Of a stretch of DNA of 8,455 nucleotides, positions 1 to 8,254 are shown piece after piece (position 1 is the first letter of the stretch; every line of letters starts with the position of its first letter). Location: the IMG/VR virus record IMGVR_UViG_2617270953_000002. One strand, written 5' to 3'. Source of the DNA: a virus (taxonomy: Duplodnaviria > Heunggongvirae > Uroviricota > Caudoviricetes). The translations under genes and the position numbers were made by a program. The notes beneath the pieces were generated by a model. The model was not told the DNA's origin. It searched no databases and saw only the letters and a list, made by a program, of their open reading frames with translations.

Positions 1-329
1 CGCTGTGGCGGCGTAAGAGGCCCCGGAACGTTATCGTTCACACGGACCGTGGAGGCCAGTACTGTTCAGCAGATTATCAGGCGCAACTGAAGCGGCATAA
101 TCTGCGTGGAAGTATGAGCGCAAAAGGTTGCTGCTACGATAATGCCTGCGTGGAAAGCTTCTTTCATTCGCTGAAAGTGGAATGTATCCATGGAGAACAC
201 TTTATCAGCCGGGAAATAATGCGGGCAACGGTGTTTAATTATATCGAATGTGATTACAATCGGTGGCGGCGGCACAGTTGGTGTGGCGGCCTCAGTCCGG
301 AACAATTTGAAAACAAGAACCTCGCTTAG
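1..329 (+). CDS. IS3-family transposase OrfB (DDE catalytic subunit), C-terminal fragment; 5' end lies outside the window
   Basis: Reading from nt 3 gives ...[54 protein letters not shown]...YNRWRRHS...[11 protein letters not shown], ending at TAG 327-329. The HTDRGxQY, CxDNA..ESFF..LK and YNR.RRHS motifs are the typical C-terminus of IS3-family DDE transposases; the tail resembles IS600. Recognised from memory. Confidence 0.85.
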
Positions 330-359
330 GCCTGTGTCCATATTACGTGGGTAGGATCA
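330..359. repeat. IS right terminal inverted repeat (IRR), ends with CA at nt 359
   Basis: Sequence gcctgtgtccatattacgtgggtaggatca directly follows the transposase stop and has the TG...CA termini and TGGACAC core typical of IS3-group IRs. The exact boundary is inferred, not confirmed against the left end. Confidence 0.6.
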
Positions 360-1551
360 TATGGCCCATAATCTGCGCAACAATACCTGTTGGTACTTCG
401 ACCCATTCAGCGAGGGTCCCAAAACTACGGCGCAATCCGTGCAAGCTGATATGTGGTAACTCCGCGCGAGTTAATGCTCTATTATGTGCTGAACGCGGTT
501 CAATAATTTTGCCACTTTTGCTGTTACTTCTGAAAACCCAATTCTCCTCGTTTGTACCACGATTGGGGATCTCCATCAGTGAGCGTAACAAGTCAGAAAC
601 ATAGGGAGTGAGGGGGATAATTCGCTCGCCTTCGATCTTGTCTTTAATTCTCATGCTTGACCATTTGAAATCTATGTCAGACCAGCGAAGTGAGGAAATT
701 TCTTCACGCCGTGCACCGGTGAGCAAAAGCACTTGGAGATAGGCTGATGCAATGGGATTATTGAGGCTACGCACGGCACTGAACCAGCTTTTGAGCTGTT
801 CTTTTTGTAAGCAATCTCCCGCTTTGCTCGCTGATATTGGAACCATTTTTCTCACGTTATGATCTTGTGCAAGATCGCCATCGATTATTCCCTGATATTT
901 TTTCTGGTAATTAGCCCATTTGATGAATGCACGCAACAGACGGTAGGCATGAGCAGTGACGGTAGGCCGATTTTGTCTCTCTGTACTTAGCCATTCGGCA
1001 ATGTTCTCTGGTGTTAGTTCTGATAATGGTCGGTCGAGCAGGCTAGCCAGTGGCCCAGGTGAGGTTGGGCCCCGGCCTCTTTTTTTACTTTCGCCTCCAC
1101 GACTGGACAAGTTAACGTGATCGGCAATGTAGCGTGCAGAGTAGGGGCGTTTAGTTTTTGCGCTGATTCCGGTTCTCAATTCATCAAGATAATCTTCCCA
1201 AGCGCTTGAAAAGGTTGCCTTCGTTTTACGAGATTCAGCCTGCTGTGATTCCGCTTCAGCAATTTTTTCCGCCTTAGCTATACGCGGATCTATCCCAGTA
1301 TCGATTAATGTTTGCAGTCGCCTGGCTTCGGCCCTCGCATCATCAATCCTCCAATCGTTAATGTTGCCAATGGTCATGCGAAGGGTTTTTCCCGCATACA
1401 GGCTTTGGAATACAAAGGCTTTTGCTCCACGAGTTGCTCGACATGCCAAGCTTGTTACGTCCGTATCCCAAAGGAAAACTTGGTTTTTCCCTTCAGGTAA
1501 AGTAAATCTTCGAATTCGTTCGAAGGTTAGTTTTTGTCTTGAAAGCGCCAT
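343..1551 (-). pseudogene. int: Tyrosine recombinase (phage/island integrase), C-terminally truncated by the IS; the last five codons and stop come from IS sequence
   Basis: 402-aa ORF with ATG at 1551 and AGGAA about 9 nt upstream. It has box I (LLLTGARREEISSLRWSDID) and box II (LHGLRRSFGTLAEW...AQIMGH), but the ORF stops 5 codons after the GH, with the junction at nt 359/360 inside the Met codon. The catalytic Tyr expected about 10 residues later is absent. Confidence 0.75.
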
Positions 1552-1797: not shown

Positions 1798-2958
1798 TTA
1801 CCTCGCATTTAAGTAAACTACGTTCTCCTCTTGTGCCGTATTTGTGCCATTGCGATTTATAATCGCATCGATTTTGCTCGCGTGCTCGGTGAGATGCCCG
1901 GCTGAAAGGTGGGCGTATCTTTGAACCATTTCGAGAGTTTCCCATCCTCCCATCTCTTTAAGCGCAAGAAGAGAGACACCGGACTGAACCAGCCAGCTTG
2001 CCCAGGTATGCCTCAGGTCATGGAAGCGGAAGTTGCTAATGCCTGCCCGCTTTAACGCTCCCTTCCATGCCTTGTTGCTGTCGGTTCTCATCTTCCTTAC
2101 CGCTGCTGTTTTTGTTCCGTCGCTTCGGTAGGCAGGTTTGGTGTGGACAAATACCCATCTCTTATGGAGCCCCTGCTGTTTTCTTAATATCTGGCATGCG
2201 GTTTCGTTAAGAGGAACTCCGATCGCATTGCCAGCTTTTGTTTCATCAGGGTGCATCCATGCCATTTTCTTATCCAGATCGACCTGTGACCACTCAAGGT
2301 CTGTAACGTTGGAACGGCGAAGGCCTGTCGTGATTGCAAACATGACCACAGGGAAGAAATGAGGAGCAATTTCTGCAAACAGGCGCTTCGATTCCTCCTC
2401 TGTAAGCCATCTGATTCGTCCATTCTTAACGCGTGGTGTTGATATTTTGGGCGTCCTGTCAAGCCATCCCCATTCAACAGCCATATTGAGAATAGCGCGA
2501 AGTATTGCCAGATGCCGCGTCTTCGTTCCTTTGCTTGCCAGCTTTGGTTTATACTCCGGCACTGGCTTGCCAAGCCGCAAACACCTGTCCCGGCTCATCT
2601 CCCAGTTCAGGCGATGGCGGCGGTTTTCCATCCCGTCTACCGCCTCCATTATTTTTTCTGTTGTTATGTCAGAGAGAATGGTTTCTCTGAAGTGCAACAT
2701 CCAGAACGATATAATGCTCTTGTCATCATCAATGGACTTCTTATCCGATTTCTCACGCAGCCACCGTATGCAGGCTTCCTTGAATAGCTTTTTCGGTGAT
2801 TCCCCGAGATTTTTTACTCTCCACGCTTCTGCTTTCAGACGATCGTGAAGTTCTTGCGCTTGCCTTTTGTCCGATGTTTCAAGAGAGCGTCTAACTCTTG
2901 ATCCATCTGGCGCGACGAAATCACAGTGCCACGTGCCACCGCGTAGTTTGATTGACAT
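1798..2958 (-). CDS. int: P22-type lambdoid tyrosine integrase, apparently intact
   Basis: 386-aa ORF with ATG at 2958 and AGGAGG 8 nt upstream. N-terminus MSIKLRGGTWHCDF...SDKRQAQELHDRLKAEAWRV and C-terminus FRFHDLRHTWASWLVQSGV...EMGGWETLEMVQRYAHL closely match the phage P22 Int pattern (recalled from memory). The stop lies 14 nt from the tRNA-Thr fragment, as expected for int next to attL. Confidence 0.9.
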   Translation of the reverse strand: MSIKLRGGTWHCDFVAPDGSRVRRSLETSDKRQAQELHDRLKAEAWRVKNLGESPKKLFKEACIRWLREKSDKKSIDDDKSIISFWMLHFRETILSDITTEKIMEAVDGMENRRHRLNWEMSRDRCLRLGKPVPEYKPKLASKGTKTRHLAILRAILNMAVEWGWLDRTPKISTPRVKNGRIRWLTEEESKRLFAEIAPHFFPVVMFAITTGLRRSNVTDLEWSQVDLDKKMAWMHPDETKAGNAIGVPLNETACQILRKQQGLHKRWVFVHTKPAYRSDGTKTAAVRKMRTDSNKAWKGALKRAGISNFRFHDLRHTWASWLVQSGVSLLALKEMGGWETLEMVQRYAHLSAGHLTEHASKIDAIINRNGTNTAQEENVVYLNAR

Positions 2959-3182
2959 GCTTTAACCTCCTGCACATCAACCGCATTCACCGCGCTATTG
3001 TGTCTCACAGACTTAAGCGCCGCAATGCAGTCTGACTTGCAAATGCGATATGGACTTTTAGGTTTATCTGGATTTATCTTTGCGGCCTGAAGTCGTCCAC
3101 TTCGTATCCACTGCGTGATAGTGCCTTTGTCTACCTTCAGATACGATGCTGCCTCTTCACGAGTGAAGATTTCTTCTTCCAC
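2835..3182 (-). CDS. xis: Excisionase (Xis/AlpA-type HTH DNA-binding protein), 115 aa, GTG start
   Basis: N-terminal IFTREEAASYLKVDKGTITQWIRSGRLQAAKI is a typical excisionase helix-turn-helix. It sits immediately upstream of int and overlaps it by 124 nt in another frame. GTG at 3182 is preceded by GGAGA. The length is consistent with P22 Xis being unusually long (about 116 aa, from memory). Confidence 0.65.
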   Translation of the reverse strand: MEEEIFTREEAASYLKVDKGTITQWIRSGRLQAAKINPDKPKSPYRICKSDCIAALKSVRHNSAVNAVDVQEVKACQSNYAVARGTVISSRQMDQELDALLKHRTKGKRKNFTIV

Positions 3183-4902: not shown

Positions 4903-5394
4903 TCACTCTCCTTTGATGCGAATGCCAGTGGTACTCATTCTCCTGATTTCCCAGAGCACACGAGGAACACCACCGTTTCCGACCGGATCGCGCTTACTCC
5001 GCATGGCGACGCTTGATTCCGCCCAGCTTTTTCTTGGAGGAAGCTCTTTCACACGAACAAAACCAGCTGCGCGAAGAGATGCTCCTGATTCATCTGCCTG
5101 GGTGTACGTAATACAACGTTGATAACCCATAGCCTTTGCTGCCCGCCAGACAGCACCATAAAGCGCGCTGTTAGCGTTGCGTTCTCCTGTGGTACATGTG
5201 CGATTTACTTCAAGCGTTAATCCATCGTCCAAATGTCGTGCAACAGGTCGACCAGCTGTCGCCACACCTATCAATTCTCCGGCATTATTTCTCAGACCAA
5301 TGCTGAATTTATGCCCCACTGGTGGTTTATTGTGTCGGTGGTGCTGTGCGATAAATTCCTGCGCCGCTTTCAGCGTTATAGGTGAAATGACCAT
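4903..5394 (-). CDS. Conserved prophage protein, 163 aa; possibly an acyl-CoA N-acyltransferase (GNAT-like) fold, assignment unverified
   Basis: ATG at 5394 overlaps the TGA of the upstream gene (TGATG), with AAGGAGGAG about 9 nt upstream. The ORF-track GTG at 5397 is one codon further upstream. Sequence shows HHRHNKPPVGHKF...LIGVATAGRPVARHLDDGLTLEVNRT...SALYGAVWRAAKAMGYQRCITYTQADESGASLRAAGF. The fold call is pattern intuition only. Confidence 0.7.
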   Translation of the reverse strand: MVISPITLKAAQEFIAQHHRHNKPPVGHKFSIGLRNNAGELIGVATAGRPVARHLDDGLTLEVNRTCTTGERNANSALYGAVWRAAKAMGYQRCITYTQADESGASLRAAGFVRVKELPPRKSWAESSVAMRSKRDPVGNGGVPRVLWEIRRMSTTGIRIKGE

Positions 5395-5873
5395 CACTCA
5401 GACTCCTCCTTGATGCCAGCGGCGCGGGAATCATTCCATCGCTTTACTTCTTCACTAATTACGTCAATGCATTCTTTCGAATCCATTAGGTAATCTTCAT
5501 CAAAAAGACGTTCCTGTTCGTTTTCTATCGCAACAATGATTGCTTCAACTAATTTTTGTGCCTGAGAATCACTTTCTAACTCTGCAATGCGCTTACTCCC
5601 ATCCGAGATAACACCTTCGTAATACTCACGCTGCTCGTTGAGTTTTGATTTTGTCTCCTCAAGCTCAACACGCAGCTTCCCTACCGTTAGCGCAATATCC
5701 TCGTTCTCCTGGTCGCGGCGTTTGATGTATTGCTGGTTTCTTTCCCGTTCATCCAGTAGTGCCAGCACAACCTGAGGTGTGACCTTCATACGAAATGCCA
5801 GCAATTTTTGTGGTGTGGCTGCTATTTTTATTGCTTCTGCCGCATCACGCAGTGCCTGATAGTCAATTGTCAT
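5394..5873 (-). CDS. Ead/Ea22-like early protein (coiled-coil), 159 aa
   Basis: N-terminus [22 protein letters not shown] matches the Ead/Ea22-like family start found in P22/lambda-type early regions (from memory); the centre is a charged coiled-coil-like segment. ATG at 5873 overlaps the upstream TGA (ATGA), with GAAGGA about 8 nt upstream. The ORF track starts 3 codons earlier. Confidence 0.7.
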   Translation of the reverse strand: MTIDYQALRDAAEAIKIAATPQKLLAFRMKVTPQVVLALLDERERNQQYIKRRDQENEDIALTVGKLRVELEETKSKLNEQREYYEGVISDGSKRIAELESDSQAQKLVEAIIVAIENEQERLFDEDYLMDSKECIDVISEEVKRWNDSRAAGIKEESE

Positions 5874-6514
5874 TCTCGCCATCCTTCACAGTTGTAATCA
5901 CTACAGCCTTCAAAATCATATGGGCTGTACTGCCAGGAGATTTTTCCGCAATGCGGACAATTCCAACGCACCTTCCCGCTTCGCGACTTCTTTCTTCTGT
6001 TCTGCTCTTTCAACCAGTCAGGCATGACCAAACCTGCGCCCTGAACCATTGTTCTGCGGTTAAAGTTATTGATATTGAACGTCCTGCGCTTTGCTGCATC
6101 AGCAATGGAAAATGGCAACCAAACTATTCCTGGTTCGTTTTTGTTGGCGACGCTAAAGATGGTCGCTTTACTGAAGTCATCTGTTGGCAATCCACCGTGT
6201 TGAAGCCAGTAAACATCGTTGCCGTTCCAGCTACCTTTTTTGTAGGCCACATACGCAGTGCAATCTGACTCAATCAGGCTTTCTGTAGGGATGTACTGGC
6301 AATCAACGTGCCACACTGCCATTGCATCCACGCTATCAGCGCAAACAGGCTGATCGATATCTCGCCCACAATTCCAGGCTTTTTGGGCTTCTTCCAGCGT
6401 GTAAACATGAGCGCGATCGATATCAGAACTGTAACCATTGCCGTTATGGCAATGGAATGAAGCGTTATTGCCCACAGTTTCACGCGAGCACATCATGTAA
6501 AAACGGTTAGTCAC
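5870..6514 (-). CDS. Hypothetical Cys/His-rich prophage protein, 214 aa, with a C-terminal zinc-ribbon-like motif
   Basis: Probable GTG start at 6514 overlapping the upstream TGA (GTGA), with strong AAGGAGG 6 nt upstream. The ORF-track start at 6535 is also GTG but lacks an SD. N-terminal [10 protein letters not shown]; C-terminal [11 protein letters not shown]...CSDYNCEGW. No family recognised. Confidence 0.7.
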
Positions 6515-6678
6515 TGGCTGCCTCCTTTGCGCCACATCGCATTCAGATATTTGTTTTCATTCACTGATGGAAAAGAATTTCTCTTAAGTAATTCCTCTCT
6601 CGATGGCATTGGCTTTACGCGTTGGCGAATAATCATTTCTGCCGGAAGAATGCCGGGATTGTATGCAAGTCCTCTCAT
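6511..6678 (-). CDS. Small hypothetical protein, 55 aa, translationally coupled to neighbours
   Basis: ATG at 6678 preceded by GAGGAA (about 7 nt spacing) which overlaps the TGA of the 6689..6982 gene. Its own TGA overlaps the GTG of the next gene. The ORF-track version (105 aa) has an N-terminal extension overlapping the upstream gene. Confidence 0.5.
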
Positions 6679-6688
6679 GGTAAATTCC

Positions 6689-6982
6689 TCAGTCATTACT
6701 GATAGCGCCATAACGTGAGCGGTAATTACGCAGGCGCGGGTCAATTTCAGGGAAGTGGGTATATGTGGCTTTGCGGAATGGTCGGATTGATGTCTGGTAA
6801 ATTCGCTCGCGTTCTTCTTTCTCTGCAAGCCATATACAGTGGCGAAATTCCTTTTCCTCTTTCGTTTCCTGCGGTAGAGACATTATCCGGTCGTAGTTTT
6901 TTCTGAATTTATCCAGCACCTCCGATACGGAATTGCCGGAACAGCGGCGCACGTCGTCCGCACCATACAGAGGCGCTGGCAT
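6689..6982 (-). CDS. Hypothetical prophage protein, 97 aa
   Basis: ATG at 6982 with AAGGA about 9 nt upstream, 23 nt after the SSB stop. No family recognised. Confidence 0.65.
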
Positions 6983-7005
6983 AATTAAATCCTTATTGTT
7001 CTAAA

Positions 7006-7389
7006 TCAGAATGGGATGGAATCGTCGTATACAGGAGTGTTCTGCTGGTTACTACTTTGCCGCTGCGGGCCATTTCCTGAAGCTGCAAATCCAATCTTTG
7101 CATTCAGTAATTCAAGAGTGATTGATTGACCATTTTGCCCCTGATAAACATCAACCCTGATGTTTTCTCCGGTAATTTCCACAATTCCACCTTCAACAAG
7201 AACACTACGGTAGTAATCCGCTTGCGCTCCCGGCTTGGCAAATACAACGGCGCTGTAGTTTATCCATTCTTTCTTTTTTGTCTGGCGATCGTAATACTGA
7301 ACGCCAGCACGGATGTTGAATCCGATATTTTCCCCGGCCTGAAACTCTCTTGCGGGCTTGTTTAGTCTTACAGTAATCGAATGTGCCAT
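7006..7389 (-). CDS. ssb: Phage single-stranded DNA-binding protein (compact OB fold with acidic SSB-type C-terminal tip), 127 aa
   Basis: ATG at 7387-7389 overlaps the erf TAA (TAATG). The C-terminus ...NTPVYDDSIPF matches the conserved DDDIPF tip of bacterial SSB. The body (ITVRL...EWINYSAVVFAK...VLVEGGIVEITGENIRVDVYQGQNGQSITLELLNAKI) resembles OB-fold strands. The ORF track's 30-aa N-terminal extension would overlap erf. Confidence 0.7.
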   Translation of the reverse strand: MAHSITVRLNKPAREFQAGENIGFNIRAGVQYYDRQTKKKEWINYSAVVFAKPGAQADYYRSVLVEGGIVEITGENIRVDVYQGQNGQSITLELLNAKIGFAASGNGPQRQSSNQQNTPVYDDSIPF

Positions 7390-7994
7390 TAAGCAGCCGC
7401 TCCTTCTAATTCGTCTCGTCTGATGTTGTAAACGTCCTGCGCTTTGTGCTGCTCCGGTGTGCCTTCGAGCATCTTCCACGCTTTGGCGAACGCCTGTTTA
7501 AGCTCTTCCACGGTGTTTTTCTGCATTGCTGCGTCAGTGAATGCTTTTAGAACCTGTTCAGGTGTAGGTGATGGTTTTGATTGCTTTGCTGCTGCGTTCT
7601 GCTGATGTTTATGCTCGTCTGTATCTGCATCTTTCGCATCATCAATGCCGAACAAACCATTAAGGCAATACTTGCGCGCATAAGAGCTTGTAGCTCCAGT
7701 AACTTGTGCAGAATCCATTCCTTTCTTGCTTTCTTCCTCTCTTGCGAGAGCGGTTGCCGTATGACTGTTTTCGCCATCGGTAATAGTTGCCGTGGCTTTC
7801 ACGTAATACCGATCACCAATCAACACAACTTCATCGCTGATTGATAAAAACAGGCCATTCAGTAACGGCTTAACGCCTTCAAGAATGTCTTCGCAGCTTC
7901 TGTATTTATATTTACCGAATGAGTTGTACTGATTCTTTGGCGCGTTCAGATTCTCCTGAATAGCTGCCAGTCTTGCATAAAATTCTTTGCTCAT
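7389..7994 (-). CDS. erf: Erf-family single-strand annealing recombinase (essential recombination function), 201 aa
   Basis: From the ATG at 7994 the product begins MSKEFYARLAAIQENLNAPKNQYNSFGKYKYRSCEDILEGVKPLL...GDRYYVKATATITDGENSH...GATSSYARKYCLNGLFGIDDAKDA, matching phage P22 Erf through the N-terminal annealing domain (from memory). The C-terminal third seems divergent. Confidence 0.9.
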   Translation of the reverse strand: MSKEFYARLAAIQENLNAPKNQYNSFGKYKYRSCEDILEGVKPLLNGLFLSISDEVVLIGDRYYVKATATITDGENSHTATALAREEESKKGMDSAQVTGATSSYARKYCLNGLFGIDDAKDADTDEHKHQQNAAAKQSKPSPTPEQVLKAFTDAAMQKNTVEELKQAFAKAWKMLEGTPEQHKAQDVYNIRRDELEGAAA

Positions 7995-8095
7995 ATGATT
8001 GTTCTCAGAATGGACACGGCCCAAGGAAATAACGCTGATTTAATACTTCTACTCGGGACAAATTAAGGCATACCCGCATTCCTTCGCGGTCGCCA

Positions 8096-8254
8096 TTATG
8101 GCGATACCAGAGAGCTTTCTGCGTGTACATGCGTCTCTGTAACTTGCTCTCCTTCACTGTGGTTGCAAGTGACATGAATATCTCCTTCGTTACCGATTAA
8201 ATCTTTCATCTGACGAATGAATTCTTCGTCTGACCAGTTATCTGTAAAACTCAT
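8096..8254 (-). CDS. Small acidic/His-containing hypothetical protein, 52 aa, in the position occupied by kil in P22/lambda
   Basis: ATG at 8254 overlaps the TGA of the cIII-like gene (ATGA). Product MSFTDNWSDEEFIRQMKDLIGNEGDIHVTCNHSEGEQVTETHVHAESSLVSP. The functional call is positional only. Confidence 0.5.
   Translation of the reverse strand: MSFTDNWSDEEFIRQMKDLIGNEGDIHVTCNHSEGEQVTETHVHAESSLVSP

What the first reader, a model, noticed from the sequence alone, without database searches (positions are those of the whole stretch)
7006..7994. Erf recombinase paired with a compact SSB carrying a host-like DDSIPF tail
Erf and an SSB-like gene overlap by TAATG, forming a coupled recombination module. 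The SSB-like protein is only 127 aa yet ends in ...YDDSIPF, the motif host SSB uses to recruit partner proteins. A phage copy could redirect host SSB-interacting proteins to phage DNA or compete with host SSB. The Erf C-terminal region appears to differ from P22 Erf.
Basis: partly seen in the sequence, partly recalled or inferred. Interest (0 to 1): 0.45.

Follow-up and report, generated by a model that had tools for sequence, protein, structure and literature searches.

The report
Phage Erf recombinase with its own SSB
This is the known recombination module of HK97-like prophages: an Erf strand-annealing protein translationally coupled to a small, highly diverged single-stranded-DNA-binding protein that keeps the host-type acidic "IPF" tail. 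It is real but ordinary.

Summary
On the minus strand, erf (7994-7389, 201 aa) and a 127-aa gene (7389-7006) overlap by one base (TAATG). The small protein ends in YDDSIPF.

The two genes are about 97% identical in DNA to phage HK97 erf and gene 40. They occur in about 1,100 of 5,426 complete E. coli genomes.

The 127-aa protein has no Pfam hit. Four results still place it in the SSB family:
- AlphaFold2 gives a confident OB barrel, a disordered linker and a tail.
- Fold searches return almost only bacterial SSB and PriB.
- A diverse family profile matches canonical SSBs (hhalign 98%; PDB hits are SSBs only).
- The D-D-x-I-P-F tip is kept across homologues while the linker varies freely.

Erf is 93% identical to P22 Erf over residues 1-125 and 30% over residues 153-201. 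The exchanged cassette is the Erf C-terminal three-helix domain plus the downstream gene, which is abc1 in P22.

A 2025 paper already names HK97 gp40 "SSB-1b" from its predicted fold, and erf-ssb modules are well known, so novelty is low.

Two new results:
- The Erf C-terminal domain subtype co-varies with the SSB tail subtype in 25 of 26 lineages.
- A gp40-type SSB sits at a chromosomal, non-phage locus in Rheinheimera.

The parts
7389..7994 (-). erf: ERF-family single-strand annealing protein, 201 aa. Residues 1-~125 form the annealing/ring domain, ~126-150 a linker and ~146-201 a C-terminal three-helix domain (CTD).
   Evidence: PF04404 E=2e-44 and PHROG 155 E=2e-57. 75% identical to P22 Erf overall and 93% over residues 1-125. 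100% identical to the Erf of HK446/HK97-like phages.
7392..7577 (-). Erf C-terminal domain (last 62 aa): a three-helix bundle, the part that differs from P22 Erf. Homologous domains end RecT, Rad52-like and Sak4 annealases.
   Evidence: AF2 pLDDT 90.3 with helices at 6-19, 23-36 and 42-61. tblastn finds the domain on Erf, RecT, Rad52/22-type and Sak4 proteins (alignment A2). 30% identical to the P22 CTD.
7006..7389 (-). SSB-1b (HK97 gp40 homologue), 127 aa. OB domain at residues 1-~103, short disordered Q/N/S/G/P linker at ~104-120, acidic tip YDDSIPF.
7387..7391 (-). TAATG stop/start overlap (erf TAA 7391-7389; ssb ATG 7389-7387), consistent with translational coupling.
   Evidence: Read directly from the sequence. 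The same one-base overlap or direct abutment occurs between annealase and SSB in 12 other loci, and between P22 erf and abc1.
6993..7517 (-). Mosaic cassette with no DNA similarity to P22: the last ~42 codons of erf plus the whole SSB gene. P22 carries its own Erf C-terminus plus abc1 here.
   Evidence: blastn against P22 J02471 gives homology only at window 7994-7518 (79%) and 6992-6536 (86%). There is no protein similarity between the 127-aa protein and Abc1.
6689..6982 (-). abc2: anti-RecBCD protein, the third gene of the recombination module.
   Evidence: 93% identical to P22 Abc2. Annotated 'phage anti-RecBCD protein' in RefSeq E. coli genomes.
8005..8175 (-). Small gene (56 aa) immediately upstream of erf. 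It is a homologue of HK97 gp42 and occupies the position of P22 arf.
   Evidence: PHROG 1723 E=9e-36. HK97 annotation. Present in all 80 IMG/VR loci that carry this Erf.

Best explanation
This is the early-left (PL) recombination module of an HK97/HK022-like lambdoid prophage, with gene order gp42-like, erf, ssb (SSB-1b), abc2. By analogy with P22, Abc2 converts host RecBCD into a resection machine. The 127-aa protein is a very diverged member of the bacterial SSB superfamily and coats the resulting single-stranded DNA. Its C-terminal acidic tip (YDDSIPF) is a docking peptide. Erf, made in fixed proportion through the TAATG coupling, is recruited to the SSB-coated DNA and anneals it to a complementary strand. 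The Erf C-terminal three-helix domain is the most likely receptor for the SSB tip. The gene identities, the OB fold, SSB-superfamily homology, tail conservation, module organisation, and the domain mosaic are shown. ssDNA binding, the tail-CTD contact and any capture of host SSB partners are inferred.
For: - Identity: about 97% DNA identity to HK97 erf and gene 40. Present in 1,089 of 5,426 complete E. coli genomes.
- Erf: PF04404 at E=2e-44.
- SSB homology: hhalign of a 71-sequence family profile against canonical SSBs gives 98.35% probability, E=1e-14, and aligns W42 and F50 with E. coli W54 and F60. The same profile against PDB sequences hits only SSBs, including yeast Rim1 over the OB domain alone.
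- Tail: conserved while the linker varies in length and sequence.
- Context: all 80 IMG/VR loci with this Erf also carry the SSB, abc2 and the gp42-like gene. SSB-1b homologues sit directly after an annealase in every intact enterobacterial locus examined: P22-like Erf, a divergent ERF, or Sak4.
- CTD-tail coupling: in 26 collapsed lineages, all 13 [FY]DDSIPF-type tails go with CTDs ending ELEG-like, and 12 of 13 W/PPF-type tails go with CTDs ending ELELP[AIV]. The intervening OB domain barely separates the two classes (83.1% within the W/PPF class, 82.0% between classes), and the annealase N-terminal class is independent of both.
- Literature: HK97 gp40 is called SSB-1b from its AF3 fold (PMC12315714). 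Sak4 of HK620 needs the C-terminal tail of its cognate SSB (PMC5928155). The Redbeta three-helix CTD binds the SSB C-terminal peptide (PMC6393309). Erf-ssb adjacency and a shared C-terminal domain among SSAP families have been described (PMC8093625).
Against: - There are no biochemical data for HK97 gp40 or its homologues.
- CTD-bearing annealases also occur with no phage SSB (P22, Tyrion, phiV10, Erwinia phage 59). According to the paper, HK620 Sak4 is a core-only RecA-like protein, yet it depends on an SSB tail. The CTD may therefore have another or an additional partner.
- The CTD-tail covariation could reflect host-range-structured gene pools (Enterobacteriaceae versus Serratia/Rahnella-type hosts) rather than direct contact. 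There is one exception (L091).
Confidence: 0.8

Rival explanations
1. The small protein mainly hijacks or decoys the host. Its host-like tip recruits or titrates host SSB-interactome proteins (RecQ, RecJ, ExoI, PriA, RecO, the chi subunit and others) to or away from phage DNA, or displaces host SSB. It would not serve Erf.
For: The tip differs from E. coli DDDIPF by one residue, and the invariant P-F is kept. Rheinheimera chromosomal homologues carry the exact EPxIDFDDDIPF host-type tail, which shows that this OB type can work with a host interactome. The gene is not restricted to one annealase class.
Against: The gene is always embedded in, and usually translationally coupled to, a recombination module. 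Tail subtype tracks the annealase CTD subtype even though the host SSB tail is, from my general knowledge, DDDIPF in both host groups. The closest experimental precedent (HK620 SSB/Sak4) shows the tail serving the phage annealase (PMC5928155). The two roles are not mutually exclusive.
Confidence: 0.3
2. The 127-aa protein is the functional counterpart of P22 Abc1, an accessory factor that modulates RecBCD with Abc2, because it occupies exactly the abc1 slot.
For: It lies in the same position between erf and abc2, with the same one-base overlap with erf. The HK620 gene in this slot was once annotated abc1 (PMC5928155).
Against: It has no sequence similarity to Abc1. It has an OB fold and profile-level homology to SSBs. 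The HK620 'abc1' proved to be an SSB (PMC5928155). The molecular function of Abc1 is unknown (PMC12315714).
Confidence: 0.07
3. It is an OB-fold protein of another kind (PriB-like, an anti-defence factor or a defence trigger), and the IPF tail is incidental or a mimic.
For: PriB and other OB proteins also appear among the fold hits. According to the introduction of a 2026 preprint, phage SSBs are sensed by some retron defence systems (bioRxiv 10.64898/2026.07.10.737580).
Against: Sequence-profile hits are to SSBs only. The SSB-specific architecture (OB, disordered linker, acidic tip) is conserved family-wide.
Confidence: 0.05

Closest known systems
HK97 gp40 / 'SSB-1b' and the anti-RecBCD + SSB + SAP functional Rec-module class (prototype HK75; PMC12315714, Genome Res 2025)
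   Same: It is the same gene: about 97% DNA identity over erf, gene 40 and abc2, with the same order and coupling. That paper infers SSB function from an AF3 fold, and this work reproduces the result independently.
   Different: Nothing substantive differs. The paper's main text has no match for an SSB tail or for CTD-tail pairing, and it states that partner-domain shuffling was outside its scope.
E. coli SSB and the bacterial SSB family (PF00436)
   Same: Both have an OB fold with a helix between beta3 and beta4, a disordered linker and an acidic D-D-x-I-P-F tip. W42 and F50 align with the DNA-stacking residues W54 and F60. Profile-profile probability is 98%.
   Different: Identity is about 15-18%. 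There is no PF00436 or NCBIfam hit for the single sequence. The linker is about 17 aa against roughly 60 aa. The tip has S in place of the third D. A family profile finds only 218 clusters among 1.84 billion representatives, so the family is small and distinct.
P22 erf-abc1-abc2 module
   Same: The Erf N-terminal domain (93%) and Abc2 (93%) are nearly the same, and the operon layout and stop/start overlap match.
   Different: The last ~42 codons of Erf and the downstream gene are replaced: SSB-1b here, Abc1 in P22. P22 has no phage SSB.
HK620 Sak4 + SSB-HK620 (SSB-2) (PMC5928155)
   Same: The SSB gene also lies between the annealase and abc2. That SSB has an acidic tail ending in PPF, which is required for annealase loading and recombineering. 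This is the best experimental model for how the present pair should work.
   Different: The annealase there is a RecA-like ATPase, and the SSB belongs to an unrelated sequence family. According to the paper, HK620 Sak4 lacks a C-terminal domain.
Lambda Redbeta C-terminal domain binding the SSB C-terminal peptide (PMC6393309; PDB 6M9K, 8TFU)
   Same: It is a small three-helix bundle at the C-terminus of an annealase that is dispensable for DNA binding. It is a proposed functional analogue of the Erf CTD. The literature reports a shared C-terminal domain in Sak4, RecT, Erf and Rad52-type proteins that is remotely homologous to it (PMC8093625).

Membership tests
ERF superfamily of single-strand annealing proteins (PF04404) | Match to the family HMM above the curated cut-off | tested here: met
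   151.6 bits against a cut-off of 25, E=2e-44, residues 5-143. PHROG 155 E=2e-57.
ERF superfamily of single-strand annealing proteins (PF04404) | Close relationship to the founding member, P22 Erf | tested here: met
   75% identity overall and 93% over residues 1-125.
ERF superfamily of single-strand annealing proteins (PF04404) | Ring oligomers, ssDNA binding and strand annealing | not testable with these tools
   Needs biochemistry or electron microscopy.
Bacterial SSB family (PF00436-type) | Match of the protein itself to the curated family HMM | tested here: not met
   No Pfam hit at E<=1 and no NCBIfam SSB model. The Rheinheimera, F7 and Colwellia homologues also have no Pfam hit.
Bacterial SSB family (PF00436-type) | Homology detectable at profile level | tested here: met
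   hhalign of A4 (71 sequences) against the canonical SSB alignment A5 gives 98.35%, E=1.1e-14 over 141 columns. hmmsearch of A4 against PDB sequences finds 7F2N at 2.7e-8, E. coli SSB at 9e-6 and Rim1 at 6e-5 over the OB domain only. PHROG 44 SSB E=8e-25.
Bacterial SSB family (PF00436-type) | SSB-type OB fold | tested here: met
Bacterial SSB family (PF00436-type) | Disordered linker followed by the acidic C-terminal tip D-D-D-I-P-F | tested here: met
   Residues 107-119 have pLDDT below 50. The tip is YDDSIPF. The tip is conserved and the linker hypervariable in homologues.
Bacterial SSB family (PF00436-type) | Cooperative ssDNA binding and homotetramer formation | not testable with these tools
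   Only single-chain prediction was available.
Lambdoid Rec module, anti-RecBCD + SSB + SAP functional class (HK97 arrangement) | Contiguous annealase, SSB and abc2 genes in the early-left operon | tested here: met
   Gene order and spacing. Abc2 is 93% identical to P22 Abc2. Collinear with HK97. The same four genes occur in all 80 IMG/VR loci.
Redbeta-CTD-like SSB-tail/exonuclease-binding domain | Small three-helix bundle at the annealase C-terminus | tested here: met
   AF2 pLDDT 90.3 with three helices.
Redbeta-CTD-like SSB-tail/exonuclease-binding domain | Specific sequence or structural similarity to the Redbeta CTD (6M9K/8TFU) | tested here: inconclusive
Redbeta-CTD-like SSB-tail/exonuclease-binding domain | Binding of the SSB C-terminal peptide | not testable with these tools
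   The only indirect support is CTD-subtype/tail-subtype covariation in 25 of 26 lineages.

The most novel reading that the evidence does not exclude
The Erf C-terminal three-helix domain and the SSB-1b C-terminal tip may form a co-evolving private recognition pair (CTD ending ELEG with [FY]DDSIPF; CTD ending ELELP with WDDxPPF). This pair would be shuffled as a cassette among Erf, Sak4, RecT and Rad52-type annealases. Separately, the SSB-1b OB lineage may be a complete SSB in its own right, able to serve as the chromosomal housekeeping SSB, as its conserved position after an MFS transporter in Rheinheimera suggests. On this reading the phage copy replaces host SSB on phage DNA while keeping recruitment of its own annealase specific.
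Probability: 0.3. Interest if true: 0.55.

Novelty: already known. Interest (0 to 1): 0.28.

Why it matters
The finding adds little as it stands. The genes are those of phage HK97. Pairing of an annealase with a cognate SSB through the SSB tail is an established theme, and gp40 has already been called an SSB from its predicted fold.

It has three practical uses:
- RefSeq still labels this widespread protein "hypothetical" (a cluster of 1,653 members; about one in five complete E. coli genomes carry the locus). The profile-level link to SSBs justifies a better name.
- The CTD-subtype/tail-subtype covariation gives a concrete, cheap experiment on annealase-SSB specificity, which is relevant to making recombineering systems portable.
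- The Rheinheimera chromosomal homologue, if it is the only SSB there, would be a case of an essential replication protein with a non-canonical OB domain.

Tried and rejected
- Single-sequence searches of the 127-aa protein against PDB sequences gave no SSB hit. The first hhalign with a shallow alignment gave only 70.8%. A diverse alignment was needed.
It was redone with CTDs from the Erf search.
- The CTD profile hit a 28-residue helix of colicin E2/E3/E9 at E=5e-5. I judged this a chance helical match.
- The first IMG/VR scan with Erf returned 80 near-identical loci. These confirmed the constant module content but were useless for diversity.
- The locus L088 upstream ORF is a degraded annealase remnant that keeps only the CTD.
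- The 56-aa gene upstream of erf is not a homologue of HK75 gp33, the OLD trigger described in a 2026 preprint.
- There is no tRNA in the window.
- I rejected the Abc1-analogue reading (no similarity) and a generic-OB or PriB reading (profile hits are SSBs only).

Full report
**1. What is in the sequence**

All genes in the region lie on the minus strand and are tightly packed.
- The first gene runs from the ATG at 7994 to the TAA at 7391-7389. It encodes 201 aa starting MSKEFYARLA.
- The second runs from the ATG at 7389-7387 to the stop at 7008-7006. It encodes 127 aa, from MAHSITVRLNK to NTPVYDDSIPF.
- The stop and start share one base, which gives TAATG. An AAGGAG Shine-Dalgarno sequence lies inside the end of the first gene.
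- Downstream, after a 23-nt gap, lies a 97-aa gene (6982-6689). Upstream, after a 10-nt gap, lies a 56-aa gene (8175-8005).

**2. Identity of the genes**

- The 201-aa protein matches Pfam ERF (PF04404) at E=2e-44 and PHROG 155.
- The 97-aa protein is 93% identical to P22 Abc2, the RecBCD modifier.
- The 1.2-kb region is 96-98% identical to phages HK106, HK97, Sf101 and CUS-3 and to several Stx-converting phages. It occurs in 1,089 of 5,426 complete E. coli genomes.
- In HK97 the genes are abc2 (gp39), gene 40, erf and genes 42/42.1.
- All 80 best IMG/VR loci with this Erf carry the same four genes.
- The rest of the window is the left arm of a lambdoid prophage: integrase, excisionase, accessory genes and a Mom-like modification gene. 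It lies next to a second, IS3-disrupted integrase.

**3. Is the 127-aa protein an SSB?**

Taken alone, the sequence matches no Pfam or NCBIfam family and no solved SSB. It does match PHROG 44, "single strand DNA binding protein", at E=8e-25.

*Fold.* With a 49-sequence alignment, AlphaFold2 gives a confident model (mean pLDDT 85.7). It has a beta-barrel with one helix (residues 55-63) over residues 1-103, a disordered stretch at 107-119, and then the tip.
- Foldseek against the PDB returns only bacterial and mitochondrial SSBs and PriB in the top 50. E-values go down to 3e-5, but TM scores are only about 0.45.

*Profile homology.* A shallow profile gave 70.8% hhalign probability against E. coli SSB. 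That alignment placed W42 and F50 on W54 and F60, which I recall as DNA-stacking residues of E. coli SSB.

A profile search of 1.84 billion cluster representatives found only 218 family members at E<=0.001. The family is therefore small and separate from the canonical SSBs.

Aligning 71 of those diverse members (A4) settles the relationship.
- hhalign against an alignment of canonical SSBs (E. coli, Sf6, HK75, mEp044) gives 98.35% probability and E=1.1e-14.
- The profile against all PDB sequences hits SSBs only: Klebsiella 2.7e-8, E. coli 9e-6, and yeast mitochondrial Rim1 at 6e-5. The Rim1 match is confined to the OB domain, with no tail involved.

The protein is thus a highly diverged member of the SSB superfamily. 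It fails the curated Pfam model but passes profile-level, fold-level and architecture-level tests.

**4. The tail**

- Among close homologues the OB domain is 50-95% identical. The linker changes freely in length (total length 123-180 aa) and in sequence. The last residues remain [FYW]-[DE]-[DE]-x-[IP]-P-F.
- Among 120 full-length representatives of the whole family, 67 end in this motif and 11 more have it followed by a short extension.
- This pattern, with a variable linker and a constrained tip, is the signature of a functional SSB C-terminal docking peptide.

**5. Erf compared with P22 Erf**

- Identity is 93% over residues 1-125, 71% over the linker (126-152) and 30% over residues 153-201.
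- At DNA level, similarity to P22 covers window 7994-7518 and 6992-6536. The 525 bp in between have no similarity. They hold the last ~42 codons of erf and the whole SSB gene.
- P22 carries its own Erf C-terminus and abc1 in that place.
- The C-terminal 62 residues fold as a confident three-helix bundle (pLDDT 90.3).

**6. The C-terminal domain is a shuffled module**

tblastn of the 61-aa CTD against 50,697 phage records finds homologous domains on four kinds of annealase:
- Erf proteins.
- RecT proteins (Tyrion, phiV10 RecET, SPN1S).
- Rad52/22-type annealases. Those of HK75 and Sf6 carry the P22-type variant.
- A Sak4 ATPase (Erwinia phage 59).

In bacterial genomes, SSB-1b genes sit directly after three kinds of annealase: a P22-like Erf, a divergent ERF (27% identical N-terminal domain) or a Sak4/AAA_24 protein. 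Each of these ends in this CTD.

The literature had already noted a shared extra C-terminal domain among Sak4, RecT, Erf and Rad52-type proteins. It called the domain remotely homologous to the Redbeta CTD (PMC8093625). That domain binds the SSB C-terminal peptide (PMC6393309).

**7. Covariation of CTD subtype and SSB tail subtype**

Using further loci from public assemblies and IMG/VR, I extracted each SSB-1b gene and the annealase ending at its start. Near-identical pairs were collapsed, which left 26 lineages.

| SSB tail type | CTD ending ELEG-like | CTD ending ELELP[AIV] |
|---|---|---|
| [FY]DDSIPF-type (13 lineages) | 13 | 0 |
| Trp-containing: WD[DE]xPPF, WDDDAPF, DDWDIPF (13 lineages) | 1 | 12 |

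The single exception is a Sak4 locus, L091.

Three points bear on whether this is more than linkage.
- The annealase N-terminal class is independent of the split. P22-like Erf and divergent ERF each occur with both CTD subtypes.
- The OB domain lying between the CTD and the tail hardly separates the classes. Mean identity is 83.1% within the W/PPF class, 88.6% within the IPF class and 82.0% between classes.
- The CTD does separate them: 55.9% and 66.0% within classes, against 45.2% between classes.

This fits co-adaptation of the CTD and the tail. Two caveats apply: the genes are adjacent, and the two classes live in different host groups. The result is suggestive, not proof.

**8. Mechanism**

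By analogy with P22, Abc2 turns RecBCD into a resection enzyme. SSB-1b coats the single strand. Its tip recruits Erf, probably through the CTD, and Erf anneals the strand. The TAATG overlap keeps the two proteins in fixed proportion.

The closest experimental precedent is HK620. There the SSB encoded in the same slot stimulates Sak4 annealing and recombineering only if its C-terminal NDYPPF is present (PMC5928155).

Capture of host SSB partners by the tip is possible and not exclusive, but nothing here tests it. CTD-bearing annealases with no phage SSB (P22, Tyrion, phiV10) would use the host SSB tail.

**9. Novelty**

A 2025 Genome Research paper on lambdoid recombination modules already lists HK97 gp40 as "SSB-1b" on the basis of an AF3 fold. 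It defines the anti-RecBCD + SSB + SAP module type (PMC12315714). Erf-ssb adjacency is the rule in many phages (PMC8093625). The finding is therefore real but already known.

This work adds four things:
- The profile-level proof of SSB homology.
- The family-wide conservation of the tail.
- The exact mosaic boundaries relative to P22.
- The CTD-tail covariation.

**10. Side observation**

In at least eleven Rheinheimera or related genomes, a 210-215-aa protein sits directly after an MFS transporter among ordinary chromosomal genes. It has a gp40-type OB domain (53% identity), a long Q/G/P linker and the tail EPxIDFDDDIPF.

From memory, that is where housekeeping ssb lies in Pseudomonas. NCBI labels the protein hypothetical. 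I could not check whether these genomes also hold a canonical ssb.

Noticed in passing
L093-L098, L100-L102, L104, L105, L109 (e.g. L094:4001-4633): Rheinheimera and Alteromonadaceae chromosomes encode a 210-215-aa protein with a gp40-type OB domain (53% identical to the window protein), a long Q/G/P linker and the host-type tail EPxIDFDDDIPF. It always lies directly after an MFS transporter in a non-phage context. It has no Pfam hit and NCBI calls it hypothetical. It may be the housekeeping SSB of the genus.
   Followed up: partly
L112:2687-3193 (HK75 SSB); L113:3170-3649 (Sf6 HNH); proteins P0257, P0288, P0289, P0394: Some phage SSBs, both canonical and SSB-1b type, carry a conserved extension after the tip of the form ...IPF-AP[VIF][GT]L..., for example DDDIPFAPVTLPFPRHAIHAI. 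The same 14 residues end the Sf6 HNH endonuclease. The IPF is then no longer C-terminal. The function is unknown.
   Followed up: no
window 66-341 and 343-1551 (-): An IS3-family transposase fragment abuts a P4-like tyrosine integrase that appears truncated at its 3' end. A second integrase (1798-2958) and an excisionase (2835-3182) follow. In other E. coli genomes that second integrase lies next to a tRNA-Thr gene. This suggests two elements integrated in tandem.
   Followed up: partly
window 4903-5397 (-): A 164-aa protein matches PHROG 1384, Mom-like DNA modification protein (E=4e-44), among the prophage accessory genes.
   Followed up: no
alignment A2 (Erf-type CTD) against PDB 1UJW, 2YSU, 5EW5: The CTD profile matches a 28-residue helix of the colicin E2/E3/E9 receptor-binding coiled coil (ERQAKAVQVYNSRKSELDA) at E=5e-5. 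This is probably a chance helical match, but the identity is striking.
   Followed up: no
L091:1029-2293 (Serratia sp. H1w): This is the only exception to the CTD/tail pairing. A Sak4 annealase with an ELEQ-type CTD sits in front of an SSB-1b with a WSDEPPF tail. That SSB is 94-95% identical to SSBs paired with ELELP-type Erf proteins, so this is probably a recent recombinant.
   Followed up: partly
window 5870-6535 (-): A 221-aa protein of unknown function (PHROG 2457, E=9e-119) has a C-terminal cysteine-rich segment (CPHCGK...CSDYNC).
   Followed up: no
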